Shown piece by piece: positions 22,122-55,200 of a DNA stretch of 64,000 bases (the stretch's first letter is position 1; the number at the start of each line of letters is the position of its first letter). The notes under the pieces are model-generated. The model saw nothing but the letters and a program-made list of their open reading frames with translations. It was not told the DNA's origin and ran no database searches. The DNA lies in the IMG/VR virus record IMGVR_UViG_3300050821_001198, positions 32,001-96,000 of that record. One strand, given 5' to 3'. Origin of the DNA: a virus. Position numbers and translations under genes: made by a program.

Positions 22122-22150
22122 TTGAAAGTAGGGTCAATCTCCCCTATAGT
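22122..22150 (+). promoter_or_regulatory. SigmaA-like promoter TTGAAA-17-TATAGT for a leaderless gene starting at 22158
   Basis: Spacing exact; ATG 7 nt after -10; -10 in loop of ATCTCCC/GGGAGAT. Confidence 0.6.
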
Positions 22151-22157
22151 GAGGGAG

Positions 22158-22565
22158 ATGGACGAATCGCTTGGTTACTGGCTCTCTGGAATGATTGACA
22201 GTGGTGCCAACTTCATCATTCGACCAAAGGCCGGATGTCGATTCCGATTGCCCTTCCTGATTGAAGATTGGGAGTGCCTCCAGGAAGTCCAAATGCAAAC
22301 CTCGATTGGGAGTTTGTACCCACAGAAGGTTTACGGGGCTACTAGGCCACGCGGCCATTGGGAGATCCAATCGAAGCCAGACTGTGTTGCCCTGACACGG
22401 GTCCTCGACCTCTATCCGTTACGTACACGTAAACAGGATGCCTACATGGTGTGGAAACGGGCGGTGTTCTACTGGACGAGAGATGAGGACTCGGGAGAAC
22501 GGCATGAAGCCCTCTCCTACCTACGCACCCGTCTCCTAGAGGTAACGGCGGGCGATAGGAATTAG
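22158..22565 (+). CDS. Free-standing single-motif LAGLIDADG-family protein with degenerate catalytic motif
   Basis: YWLSGMIDSGANFII..IGSLY..YPLRTRKQDAYMVWKRAV. Confidence 0.7.
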   Translation: MDESLGYWLSGMIDSGANFIIRPKAGCRFRLPFLIEDWECLQEVQMQTSIGSLYPQKVYGATRPRGHWEIQSKPDCVALTRVLDLYPLRTRKQDAYMVWKRAVFYWTRDEDSGERHEALSYLRTRLLEVTAGDRN

Positions 22566-23863: not shown

Positions 23864-24289
23864 CTATGAACTCAGGCGAGGGCTCTTGCAGTTGTTCAGG
23901 AACTCCACCGGGAGGTTCCTAACAGTCCACGATCCATCGTTCGTACGTTCGGCGTAGATCACGTTCCGAATGTCCGACGCGAGCAAAAGCTGAGCACACG
24001 ACGCACAAGGCTTAGAGACCTGAGCAAAGTTGTCACTCCGGGTCAACGTCACTACGAGACAGTCGATATCTCTCGTGCCCCTCCAGATGTTCCAGAGCCC
24101 TTGCAGGGCATGCCGCTCGGCATGAACCGACCGTAGCTCGCCTGCAAGGTCGGAATCGTGAGAGCACCCGTTTGACAAGATGGTGTTGCCCCTAAAGAGG
24201 ACTGCGCCGACCCGGTGCCTACGGAAGACTGAACGCTGAGCCTGCTTAGTCGCACGCCGCCACATCTCTAGAGGCGCGGCCGTCTCCAA
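23864..24289 (-). CDS. Zn-dependent cytidine/dCMP deaminase-family protein (start uncertain)
   Basis: HRVGAVL; VHAE; SKPCASC. Confidence 0.8.
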   Translation of the reverse strand: METAAPLEMWRRATKQAQRSVFRRHRVGAVLFRGNTILSNGCSHDSDLAGELRSVHAERHALQGLWNIWRGTRDIDCLVVTLTRSDNFAQVSKPCASCAQLLLASDIRNVIYAERTNDGSWTVRNLPVEFLNNCKSPRLSS

Positions 24290-24314
24290 GAGACTATCAG
24301 GCGGGACGCTCCCC

Positions 24315-25013
24315 TTAGGCTCCCTTTGGGGTCTCATCGTTCTCGCACATGACCTTGTACAGATCATTTGTGGCCGTGTGGAAGACAACGACACCCTCGG
24401 GCGGGAAGAACCCCGGTGACGCCTTCGAGCCGGACGCACGAAGCATCCCTACCACCGAATTGATGCGCTCGGTGGAGAAGGTATGGATGTCGAGGACCGG
24501 GACGGTGTGCAGGTTCTCGGTGAAGAAATCGGGAGCATCCGGATTCATGACAGACGACCACTTCTTGACGTTGAAGAGCGAGAACTTCTTGACACCCTTC
24601 TCTAGTCCGTAGCCCCGCTGGATGCCGGAACCCCACCACTCGCCAAAGTGATATCCGTCGCCCAGGTCCATCGCCAGGCTCACTGCGTTGTCGAATACCC
24701 ACTGAGCGAAGTTGAAGTTGTCCTGCTCTGGAGTGATGAGACGCTTCCGACTCTGGCACCCGACCCAGACAAGCTGTCCGTCAGCCGGATTGATGACGAT
24801 GGTGCCACCCTCGTACCGAATGTGGTCGAACACGCCCTCGTGGGCCACCCGTTCCTTGATGTACTCGGGAACAAGATCGTAGCTGATTATCACCGCTGCA
24901 TTCGTGCCGTCAATCTTCTCGGTGACGACCACGTTGCGATTCAAGCGGCCAATCTTAGGCCACGCCCGAAACTCGGGCTTGATCTCAGTGGCCTCGATTG
25001 TTGCTGAAGACAT
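24315..25013 (-). CDS. RNA ligase (Rnl2-like adenylation domain)
   Basis: TEKIDGTN; QSRKR; FGEWWG; EGVV; YK. Confidence 0.85.
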   Translation of the reverse strand: MSSATIEATEIKPEFRAWPKIGRLNRNVVVTEKIDGTNAAVIISYDLVPEYIKERVAHEGVFDHIRYEGGTIVINPADGQLVWVGCQSRKRLITPEQDNFNFAQWVFDNAVSLAMDLGDGYHFGEWWGSGIQRGYGLEKGVKKFSLFNVKKWSSVMNPDAPDFFTENLHTVPVLDIHTFSTERINSVVGMLRASGSKASPGFFPPEGVVVFHTATNDLYKVMCENDETPKGA

Positions 25014-29994: not shown

Positions 29995-31908
29995 CTAGTA
30001 AGTAACCTCGCAGGCACCACCGACGCACGCAAGCTCCTGGGTGGCCTCTGTGTGGTCCTCAAGCTCGATTGCGGTAAGAAGCGACCAGTCGATATCTGTC
30101 GGCATAGTCTGAACAAATTGTTCATACTCGTCCTCGGTGATCTCCTGATAGGGTGCCTGCTGGTAGATGTGATCGGAGTGTGGCAGAAAGGATACCCCGC
30201 TCATCTGATCCCAATGTCGGTACACGAAGTCACCCACAGCAAGCCACTCGCTCTCGCGAACAGTGATCGTCACGGACGGCTTGTGCTCGCACCAGTGCTC
30301 GGCGTACATCAACCAGATCTCTAGCTGATCAATGGCCGACATCTGGCCACGGGTGATGAGCCCAGGCGGAGCCTTCATAGGCCACGAAAAGACCCACATG
30401 GTATCCGGATGGTGGATCTCGTCCTCATAGGGCACTCCCTGCATCATTAGCAACTGACCTACAGGATCAGTCTTGTTGAGCCGGTTGGTGCGGATGTACC
30501 AGTGACCGTGACCCGCGTGGATGCCCGAAGCGTAGGTCTGACATAGCTCTGACGTGTTTCCGCTTGGCTTGTTACAGGTGATCGCCGTGGCAGGGTTGAT
30601 CCCTAGCTTAGCGGCCCATACGGCATTGGTCTCCACCGAGTGCTCCCGCAAGCGTCCGAGAAGACCCTTACATTCATCGGTCACTTGTGAAAGGATCGAG
30701 TGTGCCATAACACCTGTCAGTGACACCCCTAGGAGACGCTCTTCCTCGCAGTTCTTCTTCCACTGAGCAGACAGGTAACGGAAGTCGGTGTACGTACTCT
30801 GGATCGTACCCAGAATCGTCGCCAGTTCGACCTTACGCATCAGTTCGGCCTCGGTGTCACCCGGGCGAACGATTACCTCGGTGAGATTGCAGGTCTGACG
30901 ATCCCGAAGAATGATCTCTGAACAGGGGTTGACTCCGAACTCATGATCGGGGTCACGACGACCGTACTTGGCCGCTTGCTTCTTGGCCGCTTCACGAGAG
31001 AAGATACCTCGCTCTCCGGACTTGGACTTGATGAGCGAGATCCACTCGTCTAGGAACCGTTCCATGGAAGGTTTCTCGGTCCATGCCGCCGAGTTATTGG
31101 CTAGCGCGTAGTGAGGATTCTCGATATCCCACCGACCACTCTTGGCCTCTCGCATGCGGTCATCGGAGGGATTCGACAGTGACAAAAGAGCGCTGCGACG
31201 GACGCCTCCGACAACTACGATATCACCGATCTTGCACATGATCCCGTGACACTCCAGAGACGTGAGCTTACGCCCCTGAGCCTCCTTGAAGATGGCCACG
31301 GTGTACCGAAACAACTCGTCAAGGGGAACGGGTCCAGAGGACCGCCCTCCCATGGTCTTGAGCCGCGCTCCAGCGGGACGTAGCTTGCTGAGATCCCATG
31401 AAGGGGTCCCGCCAGCGTACAGGGCTGCTAGGAGCCTACGAAACGCAGAAGCCCAGCCCTGCTTGGAATCCGCGACGACGATTACGTCATCGACGGGATA
31501 GAGAGTTGGTACTTCAGGAAGCTGGTTGACATACTGGCGTTCGACCGAGAAGCCAACACCTGTTCCGCACATGAGGACATACATGGCTTCGTCAAAGGCG
31601 TGGACCCGATTGATCGCCAGATAGGCGCAGTTGTAGCCAGCGATGTTGTCGCGGTCGAGAGCCGGACCCGCTGTCATGAGTGCTCGCATTGACGGCACTA
31701 GCTCCAGATTCAAGATGGCATTTCTGATCTGGTCGTACTCACCGTTGAGAGTGAATTCGTGTTTCTCGGACTGCCGCTGAATAGCTGACATGTAACGGTC
31801 AACGGTTTCCGTCCAGGTCTCGCGGCGCTTGAGGTCTTCGTTCCATCGCGCGTACTTCGTCTGATGGATTTGTTCTTGGTATGGCGTGGGGAGGCCGACT
31901 TGTGTCAC
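29995..31908 (-). CDS. nrdJ: Class II (B12-dependent) ribonucleotide reductase
   Basis: PSMRALMTAG; YNC; GTGVGFS; GGVRRSA; NPCSEI; CNLTE; KPSG; EHKPS; C-terminal ACVGGACEV. Confidence 0.93.
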   Translation of the reverse strand: MTQVGLPTPYQEQIHQTKYARWNEDLKRRETWTETVDRYMSAIQRQSEKHEFTLNGEYDQIRNAILNLELVPSMRALMTAGPALDRDNIAGYNCAYLAINRVHAFDEAMYVLMCGTGVGFSVERQYVNQLPEVPTLYPVDDVIVVADSKQGWASAFRRLLAALYAGGTPSWDLSKLRPAGARLKTMGGRSSGPVPLDELFRYTVAIFKEAQGRKLTSLECHGIMCKIGDIVVVGGVRRSALLSLSNPSDDRMREAKSGRWDIENPHYALANNSAAWTEKPSMERFLDEWISLIKSKSGERGIFSREAAKKQAAKYGRRDPDHEFGVNPCSEIILRDRQTCNLTEVIVRPGDTEAELMRKVELATILGTIQSTYTDFRYLSAQWKKNCEEERLLGVSLTGVMAHSILSQVTDECKGLLGRLREHSVETNAVWAAKLGINPATAITCNKPSGNTSELCQTYASGIHAGHGHWYIRTNRLNKTDPVGQLLMMQGVPYEDEIHHPDTMWVFSWPMKAPPGLITRGQMSAIDQLEIWLMYAEHWCEHKPSVTITVRESEWLAVGDFVYRHWDQMSGVSFLPHSDHIYQQAPYQEITEDEYEQFVQTMPTDIDWSLLTAIELEDHTEATQELACVGGACEVTY

Positions 31909-32241
31909 TTGGCCCTTTCTATTCGGTTCAAAGCGTAACCGTTACCGGATAGCTAGACAGTACCAGAAAGGGGGAAGAACTGTGGCGTTCTAACACACAT
32001 TTCGCTACTTGCGTATCGAGACACTTAGATACATAACGCGCGGGCGCGTCTGACGTTCCGTTCACCCACTCAGACCCACATCCCACTGGCCATTTCTGGC
32101 AGGATGGCGTCGAGCTTGCCTGTATCTGCTCACTCCGTAAACCGGGGTTCCTCCCCGTAGGGGTTTTCACCGGCTCCGATAGGAGGCTTCAGGGTGCCAC
32201 TCTCGGCGTGCATATGTTTACCGTCATGCCTGACGAACCGA
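31909..32241 (-). ncRNA. Putative structured leader RNA / riboswitch candidate upstream of nrdJ
   Basis: Promoter at 32245-73; terminal helix TCGGTTC/GAACCGA; about 10 internal hairpins; anti-SD CCCTTTCT complementary to SD AGAAAGGG. Confidence 0.55.
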
Positions 32242-32244
32242 GTT

Positions 32245-32273
32245 ACTGTAACACAGCATTTTCACTGTGTCAA
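32245..32273 (-). promoter_or_regulatory. SigmaA-like promoter TTGACA-17-TACAGT
   Basis: Near-consensus; -10 at centre of GTTAC-A-GTAAC. Confidence 0.7.
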
Positions 32274-32303
32274 ACGCACCGATAACGGGCGAAAGGAAAT
32301 TTC

Positions 32304-32543
32304 ATGCTCAAGCAACTCATTCAGGCTGCCCTTGTAGCCATCACTCAGTCCGAGTCCATCGTTGTGGGAGCCTTGCTGTCGGGCCTCGTCCTATTGGCGA
32401 AAGACCTCCACATTGTCGTCAATAAGGCGTCCCTAGCGGTCATTCTGACACCGCTTATCACCGCCATCATTGTCGAACTTGACAAGCAGGCTGGTGTCAG
32501 TGTCTCCGCCAGACGAGCCTCGAAGGGCTCTCTAGACCAGTAA
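32304..32543 (+). CDS. Small membrane protein, holin-like
   Basis: 79 aa, two hydrophobic helices, AAAGGA SD. Confidence 0.5.
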   Translation: MLKQLIQAALVAITQSESIVVGALLSGLVLLAKDLHIVVNKASLAVILTPLITAIIVELDKQAGVSVSARRASKGSLDQ

Positions 32544-32576
32544 TTCACAGGAGTCTCGGGACTATTCTCGGGGCTC

Positions 32577-32605
32577 TTGCGCTTTCATGATATCGGTGGT
32601 AAGGT
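32577..32605 (+). promoter_or_regulatory. SigmaA-like promoter TTGCGC-17-TAAGGT for a leaderless GTG at 32612
   Basis: -10 in loop of CGGTG/CACCG; follows a terminator-like hairpin at ~32552-32576. Confidence 0.5.
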
Positions 32606-32611
32606 TTCACC

Positions 32612-32920
32612 GTGGATTTGAAAGTCAAACAGGTATGTCGTTCCTCCGAGGGCTGGCAGGCTGTCAAGGTCGAATCGTCTAGTGACCCTGATGTCACTTA
32701 CGTAGTGCTCGTGAATCCGTGGGGCGACCCACAGGAGAACATCTGCGACTGCAAGGGCTATCAGTATCGTGGCCACTGCTCTCATCAGACGAAGGCCGAG
32801 GAAAAGAACTGTGCGTGGAGCGCAAACGACTATCTAGCAGAGACCCAGACCCCGGAAGAAGAGCGTCTACAGCGCTGCCCCAAGTGCGGCGGCCCAACCA
32901 AATTGGAGTTGACCCTATGA
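32612..32920 (+). CDS. SWIM zinc-finger protein
   Basis: CDCKGYQYRGHCSH plus C-terminal CPKC. Confidence 0.75.
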   Translation: MDLKVKQVCRSSEGWQAVKVESSSDPDVTYVVLVNPWGDPQENICDCKGYQYRGHCSHQTKAEEKNCAWSANDYLAETQTPEEERLQRCPKCGGPTKLELTL

Positions 32921-33180
32921 CCCCGCAGACAATGCTCAAGCCAGAGGCTTACTTCCTCGATGGCGTTGTCGTAGCTCCCGTTGAAGCACTAATGGTGGGC
33001 GATCTTGTTAGGTTCGACCCGCGCGACACCGACTACCCGGTGGACTTCGTATTGGGAATTTCCCTGCGTAAAGGCACCTTTTACATGCCCTCGGTTGTCA
33101 CAGTGACACATGAGACCGGATCATGGTCGAAGGTGGTCGGGGAGCCCGTAGGGATCGCCGGACGGGACCTATATGTCTGA
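32917..33180 (+). CDS. Hypothetical protein
   Basis: ATGA overlap; 87 aa. Confidence 0.55.
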   Translation: MTPQTMLKPEAYFLDGVVVAPVEALMVGDLVRFDPRDTDYPVDFVLGISLRKGTFYMPSVVTVTHETGSWSKVVGEPVGIAGRDLYV

Positions 33181-33769
33181 GGTTGACGAGCTTCTCTTCA
33201 TCACGACACAGCTAGGTGAATCCTACTTCGCCTGGAAGGAGGAAGAGAAGAACAAGGAGGCCGACCGTAAGGCGTTCTTCGAGCTAGCCATCGCGGCGAA
33301 CAAGGACGCCACCATGCGTACCAAGGTGGTTGAGATCAAGCTGGTCGGGTTCGCTCAGGACATCGATACTGCCACTGCTCGTGCGGAGCAGAAGCACCCT
33401 CGATTCATCGTCAAGGGAGTCCAGGAGACCTCGGCAGACGAAACATCTACAACCTACAAGGCTGTTCTCGAAGAAGATCCTCAATGGCTTGACTTCACCT
33501 ACATCAACAAACGCGACGGGAATGTGTACTGCCGCAAAGTCGAAGACGGTAAGATGCACGTTGACGGGGACCGCATGGAGGAAGAGGACCCAGAGCTTTT
33601 CAAGAGCGTCACTATGGAGACATGGGGTGGCGAGCATATCGTGATGCCGTTCCAGTTCATGGATGACGCCACGCTGAATCGGGTTCAGCCCTACATCTAT
33701 CAGGGTAAGCCGGTGGCGAAATTGTCACCCGTGCGAGCCGCTAAGCCAGAAGAACTAGAGGAAGCATGA
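33173..33769 (+). CDS. Hypothetical protein
   Basis: 198-aa ORF in operon. Confidence 0.65.
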   Translation: MSEVDELLFITTQLGESYFAWKEEEKNKEADRKAFFELAIAANKDATMRTKVVEIKLVGFAQDIDTATARAEQKHPRFIVKGVQETSADETSTTYKAVLEEDPQWLDFTYINKRDGNVYCRKVEDGKMHVDGDRMEEEDPELFKSVTMETWGGEHIVMPFQFMDDATLNRVQPYIYQGKPVAKLSPVRAAKPEELEEA

Positions 33770-34002: not shown

Positions 34003-34567
34003 TCGGATAACCCTAGTAGGAGCCCCCGGCGCTGGCAAGTCAGACCTGGCGAATGCTCTCTTTCCGCATCTAGTGGAGCGAGGGATGAACCCTCTCCGGA
34101 TCATCGACCACGTTCATGTGGATGTAGAGGAACGGTACGATCTGGCCGTTGGGATGGCCGGTGGTTACATCGCTGACATTGCTGTCGCCCTAGAAAGAAT
34201 CGGCCAGGAGCGGGCATATATCGCCCAGGGCATTGAGCATTTCATTGTATGTGGATCGCTTGCTGAGAACGCGATTCACACGGCGATCAACGCCGAGATC
34301 TCAGCCGACCAGTTCTCATACGGTGTGGCCCAGGTAGTGACCCCCTTGTACCCGCTCATCCGAATGTCCATGGGGATTCACCCTACCTATCTGGTACCGT
34401 ATCTAGACGACGAGATCCAATTCAACCGCGCCGTGGCGAGCCAAATGGCGCTAGGTCTAGAAGCTCTAGACATGGCCTACAAGGAACTTCCGGTGGGCCT
34501 CGACAACCAGGTGGAGTACATTATTGATGACCTTTTCGCAGACCAAGACGCTCAAACTCCCAACTAA
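33992..34567 (+). CDS. P-loop NTPase/kinase-like protein
   Basis: ITLVGAPGAGKS. Confidence 0.6.
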   Translation: MAPNRITLVGAPGAGKSDLANALFPHLVERGMNPLRIIDHVHVDVEERYDLAVGMAGGYIADIAVALERIGQERAYIAQGIEHFIVCGSLAENAIHTAINAEISADQFSYGVAQVVTPLYPLIRMSMGIHPTYLVPYLDDEIQFNRAVASQMALGLEALDMAYKELPVGLDNQVEYIIDDLFADQDAQTPN

Positions 34568-35402
34568 GGAGGGTATCCTTACCCTCCCGATCCTGACAGA
34601 CGCCGAGTTTGATTGGGTCGAGCGAAACGCGGCCAAGCGTCTTGATCGTTGCCCTACATGTGACGGTAAGCGACTAGACGGAAGTGAGGCAGGGAAGATC
34701 CAAGCCTCGGATAATCACTACGGAGAGGTCAATGGTCAGTATCGCTACCTTGACCAGATTCACGAGTGCGACTGTCAGGCACAGATGGCTCTCTACCGCC
34801 ACTACACGGCCGCCGGAATCGGGGAGCAATACATGCGCCTCGACTGGACCGAGGACTACCACGGAGACACAGAGGCTAAGCGCTTCATCGACACCTACTG
34901 CGAGAAGTGGAAGAACGCTCGTCAAAACGGCATGGGGGTGACACTCTGGTCGGCCGAGGTTGGGACGGGCAAGACATTCGGGGCCACTCATATAGCCAAG
35001 TACCTAATCAAGCGTGGTCAGCGGGTTCGGCTAATTCACTTCGATGACATCGTGACCACGGCCATCGATGGGACCGTTGAAGAGATGGACGCCCTCCAGC
35101 GCATCCCGTTTCTGATCTTGGATGAGGTTTGGTATAACCCTCGCCAGAGTGAGGCACAGAAGGCCCTCTTTGGGGAACACTTCGAGCGTTTGATCCGGTA
35201 CCGAACCAACCGGAACGTACCGACAATCCTCACTACCAACTTCTCCCCGGAGCAGCTAGGCAAGCACTGGCCTCGCATCAATTCGCTCCTTGCAGCCAAG
35301 CAATTCGTGATCGAATTCCATGGCCAGGACTACCGTCTCGGCCAGTCAGTGATCGACAACAAAGAACTGTTCATGAACGACGAGGTAAGGCCCATCATAT
35401 GA
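34527..35402 (+). CDS. DnaC/IstB-like AAA+ helicase loader
   Basis: CPTC..CDC; EVGTGKT; LILDEV; YRTNRNVPTILTTN; GQDYR. Confidence 0.85.
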   Translation: MTFSQTKTLKLPTKEGILTLPILTDAEFDWVERNAAKRLDRCPTCDGKRLDGSEAGKIQASDNHYGEVNGQYRYLDQIHECDCQAQMALYRHYTAAGIGEQYMRLDWTEDYHGDTEAKRFIDTYCEKWKNARQNGMGVTLWSAEVGTGKTFGATHIAKYLIKRGQRVRLIHFDDIVTTAIDGTVEEMDALQRIPFLILDEVWYNPRQSEAQKALFGEHFERLIRYRTNRNVPTILTTNFSPEQLGKHWPRINSLLAAKQFVIEFHGQDYRLGQSVIDNKELFMNDEVRPII

Positions 35403-35999: not shown

Positions 36000-38253
36000 G
36001 GGTCCGCTATCGCTAGACCTCGATGATGAGATCATCTTCCATCTTGCGATTCCTGAGTCGGTTGATGAGATGCGGAAGGAACAGATCGGCACTAAGCTGA
36101 TCTATGACAAGTTCACCCGCACCGTCTACGACTGGCAGATGCAGCATGTCAGGGATCATGGCAAGCCCGCGACTGCTCTCGTACTCGAAGACGAGTTCGA
36201 CGGCTCTCAGGAGGATCTACCGGCTCTACAGATCCTCAGACCCGAGACGGCCATTGGAGACCTGATCACGAGACTCCGTGAGCGCCATGTACGCAACGAA
36301 GGTAAGGCGTCCGCCAAGCGGATCTCCAACACGGTCGTAGAGGCCCCTCTAGAGGTTGCACGGGTCATGGTGAGCGAGGGCAAGCGCCTAGGTGAACTGA
36401 TCGCTCGGCGCGGGGAGCGGTTTGGCTCAGGAGACTTCACACGAGCCCTGAACATCTACGAGAAGGACAAGCTCGCCGGGGCGGGACCATCACTTGGATA
36501 CGCGGAGCTTGACGAGCACTTTTACGGCATGAAGGGGCTCACATTCCTAGTCGGCGCTCCTAAGACCTACAAGGCTCTGGCTCTTGATACCCCTATCCCG
36601 ACACCGACAGGGTGGACTCTAATGGGAGATCTTAGAGTCGGAGATTCTGTATTTGATGAAACCGGGAATGTATGTCGGGTTACTGCCCAAACAGAAGTAT
36701 TCACTGGACGACCGTGTTACAGAGTCGAGTTTTCGGATGGGACCCATGTCATCGCGGACAAGGATCACGAATGGGTGACTTTTCAGAAATCGAAAAGGGG
36801 TCGGTCTTCTATTTCTACAACCGAAGAGATTATTCAGACTCTTCGGAGACCCGATATAGGATCGAACCACTCGATTCCTGTATCGGGGGCGATTACATGT
36901 TCCGAATCACAGTTCAAGGTTTCTCCCTACGTACTAGGAGCCTGGTTAGGAGATGGAACATCAGAAGATGGAGCGATCACCACCGGCGACCCCGACATTC
37001 TCTGTGAAATCATGGATCACTTTCAAATCCGAAAATGGAAGTCTGCGAAACTCACCTATGGAGTACTAGGGCTAAGAGTGCGCTTGCGTGAGCTTGGGGT
37101 ACTTGGAAACAAGCATATACCCACCGCATATCTGAGAGGCAATTACTCTCAGCGTCTAGAACTTTTACAGGGTCTAATGGATACTGACGGGTCATGCACC
37201 GGCAAGGGAGAGTGTGTCTTTGTGACCACGAAGCCCGCCCTCCGAGACGGGATTCTTGAGTTGGTTAGGTCGCTTGGATTCAAACCTGTGGCTAATGAGT
37301 ATCGGGCCACTCTCTACGGTGAAGACTGTGGACCTAAGTGGCATGTGCGATTCAAGGCATATTCGGATACTCCAGTCTTCCGACTTCAGCGGAAGCTTCA
37401 AAACCAGGATGATCCGCCAAACAGGCAAACCAGATCTCAGACACGGCAGATTACAAACGTAGTGAGCGTCCCAAGTACTCCGGTCAAATGTATTGAGGTT
37501 GACTCGCTTAGCCACCTGTATCTAGCTGGTGAGGGAATGATCCCAACTCACAATAGCTGGATCACCACTAACGCCCTTATCCAGAACGTACTCCAGGGGC
37601 GTCACTGTTGGCTCTACTCGCTGGAGCTACCGGCGGTTGAGGCATACTGGCGTGTCATGTGTATGGCGGCCAACGTGCCGTACTGGAAGTACCTAAAGTC
37701 AGTGCTTATGCCAGCGGAGCTTGACCATCTCCACGCCATCGAGGGTGAACTGATGGAGATGGGCACGTTCAGCACAGAGAAGCCTCCGGTGGGCGAACGC
37801 TCGGTCGAAGCTATGACCGAGAAGGCCGCGTCAGGCGGTGCCGATGTCATCTTCATCGATCAGCTTCAGTATTGTGAGACGCAGGCGGGACGGTCTATCG
37901 GGTCACTCAACAACACGGGTGACTATTGGGAGGTCTGTGATGATTTCCGGGACTTCTCCGACAAGGTGCCACTCTGGATCGTTCACCAGTTCAACCGTTC
38001 CGTCATGAACAACAAGGACGGCATGCCCGAGGCTCAGCAGGGGAAGGGTTCGAGCGCCATTGAAGAAACAGCCACTCTGGAGCTTGGTCTTTGGGCTAAC
38101 AAAGAGCTACGAGCCTCGAATGTGCTCCAGGTGGGCACTCTGGCGTCCCGTAACTATGACCACCTAGAGTGGCATCTGGATGTGAACCTGAGCAATGGGT
38201 GCTCGTTTGATATGCGCGGGGTAGTGGACGACGAAGAGGACGAAGATGATTGA
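35971..38253 (+). CDS. dnaB: DnaB-like replicative helicase containing an intein
   Basis: LGYAELD; GAPKTYK|S P-loop; YSLEL; IFIDQLQY; HQFNR; GSSAIEETA. Confidence 0.9.
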   Translation: METSDSSTLEGPLSLDLDDEIIFHLAIPESVDEMRKEQIGTKLIYDKFTRTVYDWQMQHVRDHGKPATALVLEDEFDGSQEDLPALQILRPETAIGDLITRLRERHVRNEGKASAKRISNTVVEAPLEVARVMVSEGKRLGELIARRGERFGSGDFTRALNIYEKDKLAGAGPSLGYAELDEHFYGMKGLTFLVGAPKTYKALALDTPIPTPTGWTLMGDLRVGDSVFDETGNVCRVTAQTEVFTGRPCYRVEFSDGTHVIADKDHEWVTFQKSKRGRSSISTTEEIIQTLRRPDIGSNHSIPVSGAITCSESQFKVSPYVLGAWLGDGTSEDGAITTGDPDILCEIMDHFQIRKWKSAKLTYGVLGLRVRLRELGVLGNKHIPTAYLRGNYSQRLELLQGLMDTDGSCTGKGECVFVTTKPALRDGILELVRSLGFKPVANEYRATLYGEDCGPKWHVRFKAYSDTPVFRLQRKLQNQDDPPNRQTRSQTRQITNVVSVPSTPVKCIEVDSLSHLYLAGEGMIPTHNSWITTNALIQNVLQGRHCWLYSLELPAVEAYWRVMCMAANVPYWKYLKSVLMPAELDHLHAIEGELMEMGTFSTEKPPVGERSVEAMTEKAASGGADVIFIDQLQYCETQAGRSIGSLNNTGDYWEVCDDFRDFSDKVPLWIVHQFNRSVMNNKDGMPEAQQGKGSSAIEETATLELGLWANKELRASNVLQVGTLASRNYDHLEWHLDVNLSNGCSFDMRGVVDDEEDEDD
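36574..37554 (+). mobile_element. Class 3 intein (327 aa) with LAGLIDADG endonuclease, in the DnaB P-loop
   Basis: Starts ALALDTPIPTPTGW; WCT triad (DHEW, VKCIEV, IPTHN); VLGAWLGDG and LLQGLMDTDG; Ser+1. Confidence 0.93.
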
Positions 38254-39277
38254 GTATGAGGACTTCGTTCACGACATCGACTACGAGCGGCTATACGACG
38301 CCCTAGACTTTGAGCCGCTTCGTCAGGACGGCGACGACAACGACATCGGTCAGTGCTTCGATCTACTAGGGCTCCACAAGAATGGAGATCGCACCGGGAA
38401 GTTCGTCTTCTACCGGGAAAGCGGGTTGGTGAGTTGTTACGTATGCGGGAGTTGCACCTTGCTCTCGTTCGTGGAGTCGATGTTCGACTATGACGAAGAT
38501 CAGGCAACACGCTGGCTATACCAATTCGCTGACGACGTAGAGCAGACAGACGAGTCGTTCCTGAACGAGATCGATGACATCCTGAAGGATCGGACACCTA
38601 AGAAGGTGATTCAGCCCCGCTTCGCCCCACAGATCCTAGACAGGTATCAGCCCTATAACGAATGGCCTGAGATTGCCGAGGTTTGGGCGGAGAACAAGGG
38701 GGTGTCGGCGGAAGTTGCAGACAAGTTCAAGCTGCGGTTCGGGCGCATCCGGACGATGACAGACGCTAAAGAGCCCTGGATAGGTGAGGCAATCATCATC
38801 CCGCACTTCTGGCGGGACAAGCTCGTGGGGTGGCAGCAGCGGTGGCTCTCGGACGACCGCCCCGAGGGGGTCGGAAAGTACAAGAGCACAGCAGATATCC
38901 CGCGCTATGACACCCTGTTCAACTACGACCGGGCCTGCGGAGAGGATATCCCGATCTTCATTGTCGAATCGCCGTCTACCGTACTCTGGCTCGCAAGCTG
39001 TGATGTTCCGGCGGTGGCTAGCTTTGGAGCAAAGATCACCCCGGCCCAAATGCGCCTACTCAGGCGTTTTCAGCAGGGAGTAGTGATCGCTCCCGACAAC
39101 GATGGACCGGGCAGGAATTTCGCCACTCTGATCAGTGAGTATCTGGAGCCGTTTGTGCCCGTGTACCAGTGTGATCCGGTTCAAATCAAGGGAATCAACG
39201 ACGGGTGTGACCTAGGGGATCTGGCTCCTAATATGGACGCACTGAGTCGTCACCTTGACACAATGTTCCGGGTCTAA
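38246..39277 (+). CDS. dnaG: DNA primase (Zn-binding domain plus TOPRIM)
   Basis: C..H..CYVC; IIIP..GWQ.R..GKY; IVES; PDNDGPG; DLGD. Confidence 0.87.
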   Translation: MIEYEDFVHDIDYERLYDALDFEPLRQDGDDNDIGQCFDLLGLHKNGDRTGKFVFYRESGLVSCYVCGSCTLLSFVESMFDYDEDQATRWLYQFADDVEQTDESFLNEIDDILKDRTPKKVIQPRFAPQILDRYQPYNEWPEIAEVWAENKGVSAEVADKFKLRFGRIRTMTDAKEPWIGEAIIIPHFWRDKLVGWQQRWLSDDRPEGVGKYKSTADIPRYDTLFNYDRACGEDIPIFIVESPSTVLWLASCDVPAVASFGAKITPAQMRLLRRFQQGVVIAPDNDGPGRNFATLISEYLEPFVPVYQCDPVQIKGINDGCDLGDLAPNMDALSRHLDTMFRV

Positions 39278-39295: not shown

Positions 39296-39409
39296 ATGGC
39301 GTTCACCAAGTTCCAGAAGGTAGAGACTGTTACACCCCTCAAGCCGAAAGAGGCTGATGAGGCACGTAAGGTCGCTGCAACAAAGGCACTTGACAAGCCA
39401 GTGAAATAA
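39296..39409 (+). CDS. 37-aa Lys-rich small protein
   Basis: MAFTKFQKVETVTPLKPKEADEARKVAATKALDKPVK; GATAA 6 nt upstream. Confidence 0.45.
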   Translation: MAFTKFQKVETVTPLKPKEADEARKVAATKALDKPVK

Positions 39410-39419
39410 GTGGTACAGT
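39390..39419 (+). promoter_or_regulatory. SigmaA-like promoter TTGACA-18-TACAGT for the ssb operon
   Basis: -10 flanked by GTGGT/ACCAC; shares CAGTGAAA and TACAGTAAC with the 32245-73 promoter. Confidence 0.65.
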
Positions 39420-51578: not shown

Positions 51579-51674
51579 TCAGTACGCCCCCGCATTCCAC
51601 GCGCCGGTGGCGCCGCACCCGGCCAGCATCGGCAGCGTGCCGATGAGCAGAACGGTCAGGATCTTCCTAGTCAT
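51579..51674 (-). CDS. 31-aa putative lipoprotein
   Basis: MTRKILTVLLIGTLPMLAGC|GATGAWNAGAY with LAGC lipobox; GGAGG SD; ATGA overlap. Confidence 0.5.
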   Translation of the reverse strand: MTRKILTVLLIGTLPMLAGCGATGAWNAGAY

Positions 51675-52210
51675 TTCTCTTCCTCCGTTAGAGGCTTGCG
51701 CCATTCGGGCTCGGGCGCCTCGCCGCGTTTGAAAGCGGCGTACTGGTCCATCCGGCCGCCCTCAGAGGTGTCGCAGATCAGATAGCCGGACGCATGCTCT
51801 GTGCCGTGGACGAACCCGACCTTCCGCATCGCGTCGTCGGACGGAGCGTGCGGGACCGTGACAAACGTCGCGATCCCCCGCTCGCGGAAGTAACCGGGAA
51901 GCGTTGAGACGAGCTTTGTAAGCAGGCCGCCGTCGTTCGACTGGAGCCACTTGAACTCCAGCCAGTCGCCGTTGCGGACGATCTCGCACCAGTCGCCGTT
52001 CTCCCAGTGGAGACGGTAGAACCGGAACGGAGGGCGGTCGTCATGCTCGATCGACGCCGCACCGACCACCTCCAAGAGGCCGTCCGTGTCGATGTCCAGG
52101 ATGCCCGCGTCGCCTCGTGCGAGGAGTTCCTGCTTCGCGGCCTCTGCGATGAGCTGCGCGCGGATCGCCCATGCATCCTGCTTAGTGCTCTGACGCTTTA
52201 GAACGTCCAT
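51671..52210 (-). CDS. Hypothetical protein, possibly GNAT-like fold
   Basis: GLLTKL..YFRERGI..MRKVGF pattern; ATG 52210 overlaps the fibre stop. Confidence 0.5.
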   Translation of the reverse strand: MDVLKRQSTKQDAWAIRAQLIAEAAKQELLARGDAGILDIDTDGLLEVVGAASIEHDDRPPFRFYRLHWENGDWCEIVRNGDWLEFKWLQSNDGGLLTKLVSTLPGYFRERGIATFVTVPHAPSDDAMRKVGFVHGTEHASGYLICDTSEGGRMDQYAAFKRGEAPEPEWRKPLTEEEK

Positions 52211-55200
52211 ATCACCACCAGGACTCCGTTGCCACCATTGCCGCCCACGCCCGAACTCTGGCCCGTGCGCGTGCCACCACCACCCCCGCCGCCGCCGCCG
52301 TAGGAGCCGCCAGAACCGCCAGCGAAGCCGCCTGTTAGGCCACCACCGCCGCCGCCACCACCGGAGCCGCCCATCGCAGAGTTCGTAGCGGCCGTGGACG
52401 CGCCACCGGCCCCCACCGCGCCCGAGCCGCCGGATGCCTGCGCGAGCGCGCCACCCGAGCCCGAGCCGCCATTTCCGCCCGCTGTCGCAGCGTTCGCTGA
52501 CGTGCATCCGCCCCCTGCAGCGCCCGCACCGGTCATGCTCCACTCCGCCTGGAACGCGGTCGGGGACGCACCGGCCGCACCAGCGGCTTGACCGGCGGGA
52601 CCGAACATCGTGGTGCCACCGCCCTGCGAGGTCGTGCCCGAACCCCCGGCGGCCGTCAGATACGAGCCGAAGCTCGTGGGGTTGCCGTACTTCGGTGCGT
52701 TCCCCGCGCCGCTCGTAACGCTCGCGCCACCCGTGCCGCTCGTCCCGACCGTTCCCGCGATCGTCGCGGTGAGATCAGACGCCAGGAACTCGCCCACTGA
52801 ATAGCCACCCGCGCCACCACCCGCGCCGCCGGATGCGGCGGTGCTCGTGGCTGCGCAAGAACCAGACGTGCCCCCGCATCCCGAGCCGATCTCGTACACG
52901 TAGGCCGACTTCGCGCCCCCGGGCTTCGTGATCGTGCCGTTCGAGGTGAGCACCTGGTACTCAAGGCCGTTCGTGTTCACGGTCGGGTCGGCTGCACGAA
53001 TACGCATCTTTGACCCGCCGGTGATATTGATCGCCGTGATGTACCCAAGGCCACCGAGGCGCTCGATGATCAGCTCTCCGCCGATCGTGTTGTTCGCGTC
53101 GAGTACCGGATTCGTAACCGGTGCCCACGCCCAGAACCCGTCCTCAAGGAAATGCGTGCCACGCACGCTAATCGGAGGATTAGACCCGATGCTCGCAAAC
53201 GACTTCAGGCCATTCACCGGATCCCAGCCGGAGTAGACGTACTGGTAAGAGTTCGCGGTGATGTACGGGATCGTGATGCCCACCTGACCCGCACCGCCGT
53301 TCGGGTCCTGGAAGCTATAGATCGCCCCGACGCCGAAGGCGTTACCCGTCCAGGTGCAGTTCGCTCCGAGTACGATGCCGACGACGGTTCCATCGAAATC
53401 GACGTTGTACGCACGCGAGGTGCCGTTGTTGTCGCCGTATGGCATCCGCCACGCGAAGTTGCAGTTGTTCGTCGGCAGGATGCCCTCGGTACCGTAGGTG
53501 CCGCCAGACGCCAACCCTGCCGTGTGAACATTGTTGTGGCCGCTCGGGACCGCCTCGACACAGAGAGCCAGATCGACGCCGCCCATATTCGCGTTCTCGG
53601 GCATCCACACGGTGAGGTTGTTGAAGTGGAACGCACACGAGATCGGGAACGCCGAGAGGTCGGACGGGTACGGCATCGTCGCGCCGCCAATCACCGACGG
53701 GACACCGAAGCTACTGCTGTACCCCGGCCCCGGGCAGAGCGCCAGAATGCCAGCGCCCGGGGGCATGTCCCAGTCAAGGGCGATATTCGGGCTCTCGGGG
53801 AGCGGGATCAGCGCATAGCCCCCCTGAGACGTCGAGAACGTGCCACCGTTGGCACCAACGCCGTAGAGCTTGTTCGCGAACTGCGCCTTATAGCCAGCGC
53901 CGCACGCTGCGCTCAGGTTCAAGAGTGCCGCAGCATCGTCGGTCGAGAACCAGCCATTACAGTTCGTCGAGATCGTCGTTGAAGCGTTCACCGACAGCGT
54001 GACCGTTCCAGCCGACGCACCATTGCCAGGGACCCCGGTGATCTGCGCGAACAGTCCCGCGCCCATCGTCGTGACAGCCGATCCGGACGGCAGCGTGACC
54101 GGCACGTTCCCCAAATGGTTGACGGTGATGTTGCCGTTTGACGCCGCTGCCGATACCAGAGCGAACGGGATGCCGTTCGCTCCACTGGACACGATTACCC
54201 ACGCGCCCGAAAGCGGGATCGCGGCGCCAGAAGTGCGCGAGATCGTGGTCGGGTTCGTACCCGAGGTGATCTGCGCGCTCGTCGTCCCGAGCGACGTGGA
54301 CGCACCCGCCCCACGAACATAGATGTACTGGCCGATCTTCGCCTGCGACGCCTTCGAGGTGGTCAACACGTTCGATCCGGCCTGGATCGCGCCGTCGGAG
54401 AACATCACCCCGTCACCCACCGCCCCGAACTGGTCCGGGGTCAGTGTGGATCCACGCGCGACAAGCGCCCAGTTCGTCCCATCCGCCCCGAAAGTCGAGC
54501 CGGAGGTGAAGGCGGACTGCGCCGCGTACAGGAGCCCGTTGACGAGAACGAACTGACCCTTCAGGTAGTTCACGCCAGAGGCCCAAGTGAGCGACGTGTT
54601 CTGAGCGGCCGGGAGGCGGGCGGTCGCATCGAGCGTCGCGACGCCGCTTGCGGCGGCCCTCTGTGTCAGCGGGATCAGCGTAGCCTCAGCAGCGAGCGCT
54701 CGCGTCCTCTCGACAGCCACCGCAGAGTCCGCGTAGCCAGTGGTCGCGATCTTCGTGGAGTCATCGAGCGCCGCCGCTGTCGGCGCTGTCGGCGTCCCCG
54801 TGAACGCTGGCGAGGCGAGCCGCGCCAGCGTAGCCGAATCAGACAGATCGGTGCTGGCCGCGTTCAAGCCCGGGTTCGGGTATGAGCCCGATAGCTTCCC
54901 GCCAGCAGCGCCGGACGGTGGCCCGCCAACCTCCCAGTCCACGCCATCCGTGGCCGACGAGCGCGCCGTGAGCACATAGCCATCCGTGCCGACCGGCAGC
55001 CTCGCGCGGACGCCGTTCGACGCGCCCACGATCATGTCGCCCTTCGCCTGGACCAGTTCGTCCTGAGCCCCGCTTACCACCGAATTCGGCAGGTTAGCAA
55101 TGTCGGTGGCGTACTTCAACGAACTCCAGGCCGTCGCGCCGTCCCCGATCTTTTGTTTCCCCGTATCGGTTTCGAGGGCGGGTTCGCCAAGGGCTAGAAC

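What the first reader, a model, noticed from the sequence alone, without database searches (positions are those of the whole stretch)
31909..32245. ~320-nt highly structured nrdJ leader with switch-like alternative pairings (riboswitch or new ncRNA candidate)
Seen: this is the only long non-coding gap in a densely packed window, downstream of a near-consensus promoter. The predicted 5' end (UCGGUUC, 32241-35) pairs with GAACCGA (31929-23) and encloses many hairpins: CGUCA/UGACG, CUCC/GGAG, CCGG/CCGG around a C-UACG-G loop, GAGC/GCUC, CAUCC/GGAUG around GCCA-GAAA-UGGC, GUCUGA/UCAGAC, GUAUC/GAUAC, AGAAC/GUUCU. An internal CCCUUUCU (31972-65) is perfectly complementary to the nrdJ SD region AGAAAGGG (31920-13), and that hairpin would compete with the terminal helix. 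Resemblance to cobalamin riboswitches is only fragmentary (GGAGCCGGUGAAAA). Inference: a translational on/off RNA controlling a B12-dependent RNR, or an independent phage ncRNA.
Basis: partly seen in the sequence, partly recalled or inferred. Interest (0 to 1): 0.8.

Follow-up and report, generated by a model that had tools for sequence, protein, structure and literature searches.

The report
Long unconserved leader before phage nrdJ
The stretch is a real, unusually long non-coding gap between a good promoter and a phage's B12-dependent ribonucleotide reductase gene, but apart from one hairpin that buries the ribosome-binding site nothing in it folds better than chance or matches a known RNA family, so the riboswitch idea is unsupported.

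Summary
Taken together they are no more than chance gives. The 337-nt leader folds at -113.8 kcal/mol, z = -0.56, and 27 of 100 shuffles fold at least as well.

Rfam gives nothing in the gap, either at gathering scores or at E <= 10. The gap is non-coding by codon statistics and homology.

It is a 395-nt divergent control region (31909-32303). It lies between nrdJ/thyX running leftward and a replication module running rightward, next to the genome's cumulative GC-skew minimum.

The promoter is credible: the genome has 23 near-consensus sites against 6.65 +/- 1.98 in shuffles. The 336-nt distance from promoter to start codon is the longest of 20 assignable sites; the others are 6-151 nt.

One element stands out mildly. 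A hairpin of -24.6 kcal/mol buries the Shine-Dalgarno sequence and the GTG start (z = -2.49; pair probability 0.76-0.98). Its occlusion of the ribosome-binding site ranks only 25th of 153 gene starts.

No homologous leader was found in 219 nrdJ loci. DNA of the closer relatives (72-84% NrdJ) could not be fetched, so covariation is untested.

Verdict: a long nrdJ leader with a hairpin that occludes the ribosome-binding site; ligand sensing is unsupported. Low interest. The scan has noted other, different nrdJ leaders on other DNA.

The parts
32245..32273 (-). Sigma-70/sigma-A-type promoter TTGACA-17-TACAGT, with TG before the -10
   Evidence: 10 of 12 matches, the only site in 31500-32800; it is one of 23 such sites in the 128-kb genome, against 6.65 +/- 1.98 in shuffles; it shares CAGTGAAA and TACAGTAAC with the promoter at 39390(+).
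32251..32270 (.). Inverted repeat ACACAG-N8-CTGTGT filling the promoter spacer; candidate operator (inference)
   Evidence: this is the only perfect copy in the genome. The other 5 of the 6 hits carry 1-2 substitutions.
32242..32252 (.). Palindrome GTTACTGTAAC centred on the -10 box, so that a TANNNT hexamer reads on both strands
   Evidence: perfect only here; a one-mismatch copy lies at 39412, at the look-alike promoter.
31909..32238 (-). Predicted nrdJ 5' leader of about 330 nt. The transcription start is inferred from the -10 position and was not measured.
   Evidence: 336 nt from the end of the -10 to the GTG, against 6-151 nt at the 19 other assignable promoter-like sites; z = -0.56; no Rfam family.
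32130..32213 (-). Candidate 27-aa small ORF or leader peptide (ATG; MHAESG...RFTE)
   Evidence: codon score 0.258, GC at codon positions 1/2/3 of 0.64/0.54/0.68; 8 of 411 spurious small ORFs (1.9%) score as high. Its ATG lies 31 nt from the -10, like three other leadered genes (30-32 nt). Against it: the SD is weak (ACGG), and there is no homologue.
32060..32125 (-). Local hairpin (CAUCC...GGAUG around GCCA-GAAA-UGGC)
   Evidence: -26.3 kcal/mol, z = -2.19, 6 of 200 shuffles as good. The window was chosen after the fact.
31904..31980 (-). Hairpin that buries the Shine-Dalgarno sequence and the GTG start. The anti-SD CCCUUUCU at 31972-31965 pairs with AGAAAGGG at 31920-31913.
   Evidence: -24.6 kcal/mol, z = -2.49, 1 of 200 shuffles as good; pair probability 0.76-0.98; p about 0.039; opening energy 14.5 kcal/mol, rank 25 of 153.
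29995..31908 (-). nrdJ, a class II ribonucleotide reductase of 637 aa with a GTG start
   Evidence: PF02867 at 24.4 bits against a cut-off of 23.9; homologues named ribonucleoside-triphosphate reductase; five relatives align with it at 72-84% identity; the consensus begins MTxIGLPT.
32304..32543 (+). Divergent 79-aa hydrophobic ORF, the first gene of the rightward arm
   Evidence: codon score 0.192, and only 0.1% of wrong-frame segments score as high; translation; an RNA-library contig covers 32300-32618.

Best explanation
The region is the leftward half of a 395-nt divergent control region. A host-type sigma-70/sigma-A promoter at 32273-32245 most likely transcribes nrdJ with an atypically long leader of about 330 nt. 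Most of that leader has no demonstrable structure and no known family. Its one above-chance element is a 3' hairpin that pairs the Shine-Dalgarno sequence and the GTG start with an upstream CCCUUUCU tract. The likely mechanism is that this hairpin keeps nrdJ translation initiation low or conditional. Opening would come from ribosomes translating a short upstream ORF, from melting, or from an unknown trans-acting factor, and not from a metabolite-binding aptamer.

Shown here: the gap, the promoter-like site and its enrichment in the genome, the absence of coding signal, and the predicted hairpin. Inferred: the transcription start, any effect on translation, and any trigger.
For: - Promoter: it is the only site in 31500-32800. 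The genome holds 23 sites at 10 of 12 or better against 6.65 +/- 1.98 in shuffles, most lying on the strand of the genes around them and many followed by leaderless ATGs.
- Leader length: 336 nt is the longest of 20 assignable promoter-to-start distances; the others are 6-151 nt.
- Non-coding: the 80-aa ORF scores -0.174, and only 0.3% of real 80-codon segments score that low. It has no word-sharing homologue. Against 1.84 billion representatives it gives only 2 weak multi-stretch hits, to proteins of 1380 and 1467 aa. None of 7 gap ORFs has a PHROG family.
- Hairpin: -24.6 kcal/mol, z = -2.49; pair probability 0.76-0.98, with SD bases 0.01-0.05 unpaired; a complement of 8 nt or more in 3.9% of 2000 shuffles.
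- Strand asymmetry: the minus strand folds 6-10 kcal/mol better than the plus strand in the central and 3' windows.
- nrdJ start: five relatives align with it at 72-84% identity, and the consensus begins MTxIGLPT.
Against: - The whole leader is no more stable than shuffles (z = -0.56).
- The hairpin window was chosen after the fact.
- Occlusion of the ribosome-binding site is not exceptional: rank 25 of 153, 14.5 kcal/mol against a mean of 10.5 +/- 3.7. The background start sites come from a crude gene map.
- The transcription start was not measured. A promoter nearer to nrdJ would leave the anti-SD tract out of the mRNA.
- No conservation data exist. 0 of 219 fetched nrdJ loci has a similar leader, and in most of the 53 loci examined an ORF of 80 aa or more ends within about 150 nt of the nrdJ match.
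Confidence: 0.45

Rival explanations
1. A new metabolite-sensing riboswitch (AdoCbl, dNTP or another ligand) that toggles between the anti-SD hairpin and a terminal helix.
For: - A long leader before a cofactor-dependent enzyme gene.
- The anti-SD helix is strongly predicted, and a fold with the SD free lies only 4.5 kcal/mol above the minimum.
- Earlier notes of this scan report other, unrelated conserved leaders before phage RNR genes. These are unchecked leads only.
Against: - No Rfam match in the leader at E <= 10, cobalamin classes included.
- z = -0.56.
- Terminal helix probability 0.012.
- No homologous leader in 219 loci.
- 20 related phage nrdJ loci gave only tRNA matches in Rfam.
- No candidate aptamer domain stands out: the region holding GGAGCCGGUGAAAA, 32125-32200, gives z = 0.01.
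Confidence: 0.08
2. The 'leader' is partly an operon. The promoter first drives a real 27-aa gene (32213-32130), and nrdJ follows after a 221-nt intercistronic spacer.
For: - Codon score 0.258, the median of real 26-codon windows; only 8 of 411 spurious small ORFs reach it.
- The ATG lies 31 nt from the -10, like three other leadered genes of this phage (30, 31 and 32 nt). An ACGG motif sits 6 nt upstream, resembling their ACGGA.
Against: - About 10 ORFs of 20 aa or more were examined in the gap, so roughly 0.2 false positives are expected.
- The SD is weak.
- No PHROG family and no tblastn match (best E = 2.1).
- It still leaves 221 nt unexplained.
Confidence: 0.2
3. The gap acts at the DNA level, as the replication origin or a protein-bound divergent regulatory region, and any RNA structure is incidental.
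For: - The global cumulative GC-skew minimum is at window 32547, about 250 nt right of the gap.
- The gap abuts the replication module: an IstB/DnaC-like loader and a Toprim primase.
- Two palindromes overlap the promoter.
Against: - No direct-repeat family in 31900-33300, and only two-copy short matches in the gap.
- No AT-rich stretch: the lowest GC in 60-nt windows is 0.43.
- No DnaA-box match of 8 of 9 or better inside the gap.
- The switch in transcription direction explains the skew by itself.
Confidence: 0.08
4. A functionless spacer or the decayed remnant of a lost gene; the hairpin is chance.
For: - Folding as in shuffles.
- No conservation detectable.
- Occlusion of the ribosome-binding site is within the genome's normal range.
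Against: - tblastn of 9,420 ORF translations from the other loci against the gap gave at most 23 bits, so there is no trace of a pseudogene.
- The genome is otherwise tightly packed.
- The anti-SD complement has p of about 0.04.
Confidence: 0.17

Closest known systems
Long 5' UTR of the Pseudomonas aeruginosa nrdAB operon (PMC12528414; abstract and outline seen)
   Same: It is a long leader before a ribonucleotide reductase operon. It lowers expression, and no specific regulatory element could be pinned down; the authors judged a B12 response unlikely.
   Different: That case is a bacterial class Ia operon with experimental evidence on mRNA level and stability. Here the gene is a phage class II gene, there is no experiment, and the sequences were not compared.
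SD-sequestering leader hairpins (translational operators and RNA-thermometer-like elements; general knowledge, recalled)
   Same: An upstream pyrimidine tract pairs with the SD and start codon in a stable local hairpin.
   Different: No conserved motif of a named thermometer family appears in the Rfam scan. The hairpin's occlusion is not an outlier in this genome.
Cobalamin riboswitch (Rfam RF00174/RF01689), including the B12 riboswitch of Streptomyces nrdABS (recalled, not read here)
   Same: A link between B12 and RNR gene control, and a short GGUGAAAA-like string.
   Different: There is no model match at E <= 10. The known Streptomyces case represses the B12-independent RNR, not nrdJ (recalled).
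Other uncatalogued leaders before phage nrdJ/RNR noted by this scan (e1-5911045, e1-5966214, e1-5349934, e1-5802874, AI notes)
   Same: Non-coding elements directly upstream of phage RNR genes. One is described as carrying an exact complement of the ribosome-binding site.
   Different: No look-alike stretch was found by the scan index or in my 219 loci. Those elements are described as conserved in many phages; this one has no detectable relatives.

Membership tests
Cobalamin riboswitch (RF00174, AdoCbl-variant RF01689) | A match to the covariance model (conserved core and B12 box) | tested here: not met
   cmscan at gathering scores over the whole window found only 2 tRNAs. cmscan at E <= 10 on 31700-32500 gave 3 chance hits (E about 2.5), all at 32315-32494 and outside the leader.
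Any Rfam 15 family (including 6S, Ms1, purine/2'-dG, NAD+, T-box, group I intron) | A model match at or near threshold | tested here: not met
   no match inside 31909-32303 on either strand.
Riboswitch in general | A conserved aptamer with covarying helices across homologues | not testable with these tools
   No homologous leader in 219 loci, 1.49 Mb.
Riboswitch in general | An expression platform with mutually exclusive pairings | tested here: inconclusive
   The anti-SD helix has probability 0.76-0.98. The alternative terminal helix has probability 0.012 and costs +4.5 kcal/mol. No intrinsic terminator lies on the minus strand.
Structured ncRNA | Folding energy below that of dinucleotide shuffles | tested here: not met
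   Whole leader z = -0.56. Only 1 of 15 minus-strand 120-nt windows reaches z <= -2.
SD-sequestering translational hairpin | SD and start codon paired in a stable local helix | tested here: met
   The significance is modest.
Protein-coding gene | Codon usage like the genome's genes, or homologues | tested here: not met
   The 80-aa ORF fails. Only the 27-aa ORF is coding-like.
Phage replication origin | Iterons and/or an AT-rich unwinding element | tested here: not met
   Only the position next to the GC-skew minimum fits.
NrdR operator | Tandem 16-bp NrdR boxes (consensus recalled from memory, not from a call) | not tested
   By eye, the promoter palindrome ACACAG-N8-CTGTGT is 20 bp and single, so it does not look like the recalled 16-bp tandem boxes. 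No model was run.

The most novel reading that the evidence does not exclude
The roughly 330-nt leader is an orphan, lineage-specific regulatory RNA: a new riboswitch class or a protein- or sRNA-responsive switch. It would gate translation of a phage B12-dependent ribonucleotide reductase through the anti-SD hairpin, possibly coupled to translation of the 27-aa upstream ORF.
Probability: 0.08. Interest if true: 0.7.

Novelty: new member of a known kind. Interest (0 to 1): 0.25.

Why it matters
If the hairpin really gates nrdJ, it would show how a large soil phage times or limits the supply of dNTPs. This phage has host-type promoters and many leaderless genes. As it stands, the result is mainly a caution. 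A list of short complementary segments in a 330-nt stretch of 55% GC is what chance gives, and the riboswitch label is not earned without covariation. The one cheap decisive test is to align the upstream regions of the five NrdJ relatives at 72-84% identity.

Tried and rejected
HOMOLOGUE HUNTS THAT GAVE NO USABLE LEADER
- blastn (distant mode) of 31850-32350 against 50,697 phage records: no match.
- Metagenome scan: 80 loci, at most 64%. Genome-contig scan: 15 loci, at most 48%.
- blastn and nhmmer of the leader against 59 loci found only matches to the first nrdJ codons. Against 219 loci, 1,491,297 nt, they found nothing. Loci L221-L329, fetched later, were not searched with the leader.
- Two exact leader probes in viral contigs: 0 hits each.
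- Scan-index look-alikes: none.

OTHER nrdJ LEADERS
- I clustered 223 unique upstream regions. Most clusters have an ORF running to within 0-40 nt of nrdJ.
- By my reading of the alignment, cluster A2 is a small conserved ORF and not an RNA.
- Cluster A3 is a GC-rich hairpin followed by a T-run, then an invariant small hairpin.
- Neither resembles this leader, so no covariance model was built. The four-locus cluster with a gap of about 143 nt (L007 and relatives) was not analysed.

RNA EVIDENCE
- One metatranscriptome run (X2, Logan contigs) holds pieces at 31027-31177, 31461-31659, 32300-32618 and 32665-32865, and none on 31909-32299.
- Contigs cannot show starts, ends or absence, so this is not used as evidence either way.
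- DNA run X3 has an identical 151-nt contig on 32138-32288, so it gives no variation to analyse. X1 may be the source sample.

OTHER CHECKS
- Pseudogene check: tblastn of 9,420 ORF translations against the gap gave at most 23.1 bits.
- Self-repeat check: the longest match of the gap elsewhere in the genome is 14 nt, E = 0.15.
- A possible nearer promoter, TGgTACTGT at 31965-31957, was considered and set aside. Its five fixed bases are expected about 0.4 times per strand in 395 nt (my arithmetic).
- Literature: one search, 'nrdJ' with 'riboswitch', found 34 papers, of which 15 were listed. In PMC3653736 the word riboswitch occurs only in the reference list, and NrdR 0 times. Supplements were closed and not consulted. 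I make no claim that anything is absent from print.

Full report
SETTING

The window is bases 32001-96000 of a 128,248-bp virus record. A search for sequencing runs that hold the stretch listed three soil-metagenome runs.

The flagged stretch lies in a 395-nt gap, 31909-32303. To its left, on the minus strand, are nrdJ (29995-31908, GTG start; PF02867 at 24.4 bits against a cut-off of 23.9) and thyX (PF02511, E = 2.4e-45), followed by a ClpP-like gene.

To its right, on the plus strand, the genes are:
- a coding-like 79-aa hydrophobic ORF (32304-32543);
- an ORF with a CxC...CxH motif that I read as a SWIM-type zinc finger (32612-32920; PHROGs gives only a weak 'zinc-finger domain protein' hit, E = 0.015);
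- an IstB/DnaC-like ATPase (34524-35402);
- a Toprim primase (38246-39277).

So the gap is the divergence point of two transcription arms. The global cumulative GC-skew minimum is at window 32547.

THE OBSERVATION

The promoter TTGACA-17-TACAGT, preceded by TG, is the only promoter-like site in 31500-32800.

It is credible in context. The genome has 23 sites at 10 of 12 or better, against 6.65 +/- 1.98 in block shuffles. Most lie on the strand of the genes around them. Several are followed at 6-8 nt by an ATG or GTG, meaning leaderless genes. From general knowledge, that style is typical of Actinobacteria and their phages.

For 20 of the 23 sites a coding-like ORF could be assigned downstream. 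The distance from the end of the -10 to the start codon is 6-151 nt for 19 of them and 336 nt for nrdJ. The long leader is therefore a real oddity of this gene, if no nearer promoter exists.

IS IT HIGHLY STRUCTURED?

No.
- The 337-nt stretch folds at -113.8 kcal/mol against -110.9 +/- 5.3 for shuffles. That is z = -0.56, and 27 of 100 shuffles fold as well.
- Of 15 sliding 120-nt windows on the minus strand, only 31900-32019 reaches z = -2.0. The plus strand shows nothing in the gap.
- Of five chosen sub-regions, two stand out. The RBS hairpin 31900-31985 gives -24.6 kcal/mol, z = -2.49, with 1 of 200 shuffles as good. The hairpin at 32060-32125 gives z = -2.19, with 6 of 200.
- The segment with the cobalamin-like string (32125-32200) gives z = 0.01.

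THE PROPOSED SWITCH

In the full-length leader the anti-SD helix has pair probability 0.76-0.98, and the SD bases are 1-5% unpaired. The proposed terminal helix has probability 0.012. Forcing it costs 4.5 kcal/mol and frees the SD.

A perfect complement of 8 nt or more to the 23-nt ribosome-binding region arises in 3.9% of 2000 shuffles.

The energy needed to open the nrdJ ribosome-binding site is 14.5 kcal/mol. That ranks 25th of 153 crude gene starts (mean 10.5, sd 3.7). The hairpin is plausible and mildly non-random, but it is not exceptional.

KNOWN FAMILIES

Rfam 15 at gathering scores finds only two tRNAs in the 64-kb window. At E <= 10 on 31700-32500 the three hits (E about 2.5) are all outside the leader. 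Twenty related phage nrdJ loci gave only tRNAs.

CODING?

- The 80-aa ORF (31928-32170) has a non-coding codon score of -0.174; only 0.3% of real segments score that low. Its GC by codon position is flat, 0.52/0.57/0.54, against the genome's 0.60/0.46/0.69.
- It has no word-sharing homologue, no Pfam or PHROG family, and only two weak multi-stretch hits to very long proteins among 1.84 billion representatives.
- There is no trace of a pseudogene.
- The exception is a 27-aa ORF (32213-32130). Its codon score is 0.258, and 8 of 411 spurious small ORFs score as high. Its ATG sits 31 nt from the -10, as in three other leadered genes. It has a weak SD and no homologue. I treat it as a candidate and no more.

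ORIGIN?

Position and neighbours fit. But there are no iterons, no AT-rich element (minimum GC 0.43) and no DnaA-box-like site in the gap. The switch in transcription direction explains the skew.

CONSERVATION

This is the decisive missing piece.

None of 219 loci has a similar leader. In most of the 53 loci examined, an ORF of 80 aa or more ends within about 150 nt of the nrdJ match. The closest large viral contig (L001, 61%) has only a gap of about 130 nt next to a divergent gene.

RNA-library contigs exist for nrdJ and for the rightward genes but not for the leader. Contigs cannot decide this.

VERDICT

This is a long, lineage-specific nrdJ leader inside a divergent control region. It carries a hairpin that occludes the ribosome-binding site and probably damps or conditions translation (confidence 0.45). 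The riboswitch reading is not excluded, but nothing beyond that hairpin supports it (0.08).

Long regulatory 5' UTRs before RNR operons are known; P. aeruginosa nrdAB is one (PMC12528414, abstract seen). Earlier notes of this scan describe other, unrelated leaders before phage RNR genes on other DNA (unchecked leads).

Noticed in passing
window 32245-32273 (-) and 39390-39419 (+): The two promoters share TTGACA, CAGTGAAA in the spacer and TACAGTAAC at the -10. They may be one regulatory class. They drive nrdJ and a 364-aa gene with no Pfam family that lies just after the primase.
   Followed up: partly
window 32242-32252: The palindrome GTTACTGTAAC makes the -10 hexamer read TACAGT on the minus strand and TACTGT on the plus strand. 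One box could therefore serve both divergent arms. No other plus-strand promoter at 9 of 12 or better precedes the 79-aa gene.
   Followed up: no
genome 5650, 10751, 11382, 13482, 25088, 26481, 105489 (window -26350 to 73489): At least 7 of 23 near-consensus promoters are followed by a start codon 6-8 nt after the -10. These are leaderless genes, which suggests an actinobacterial-type host.
   Followed up: partly
window 32300-32618: In the metatranscriptome run X2, the deepest contig on the 3-kb stretch laid (30500-33500; word depth 10.4) starts 4 nt before the ATG of the 79-aa ORF. Contig ends are not transcript ends, so this is a hint only.
   Followed up: no
window 32547 (genome 64547): The global cumulative GC-skew minimum of the 128-kb genome falls just right of the gap, at the end of the 79-aa ORF.
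   Followed up: partly
window 22122-22565 (+), 23864-24439 (-), 51671-52543 (-): Long ORFs of 146, 190 and 289 aa have codon usage unlike the rest of the genome (mean scores -0.01, -0.10 and 0.09). They may be recently acquired genes.
   Followed up: no
loci L039-L045, L052, L104-L114 (alignment A3): In a marine phage group, nrdJ is preceded by a GC-rich terminator hairpin and then an invariant 30-nt segment with a small hairpin (TTTCGCCTTAGAGGGCGATTCTGGAGCTCTAG). That segment is identical in 13 of 14 loci.
   Followed up: no
loci L228, L249, L250, L261, L262, L278, L296 (alignment A2): The conserved region of about 200 nt upstream of nrdJ looks like a small conserved ORF and not an RNA. This is my reading of the alignment and is untested.
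   Followed up: no
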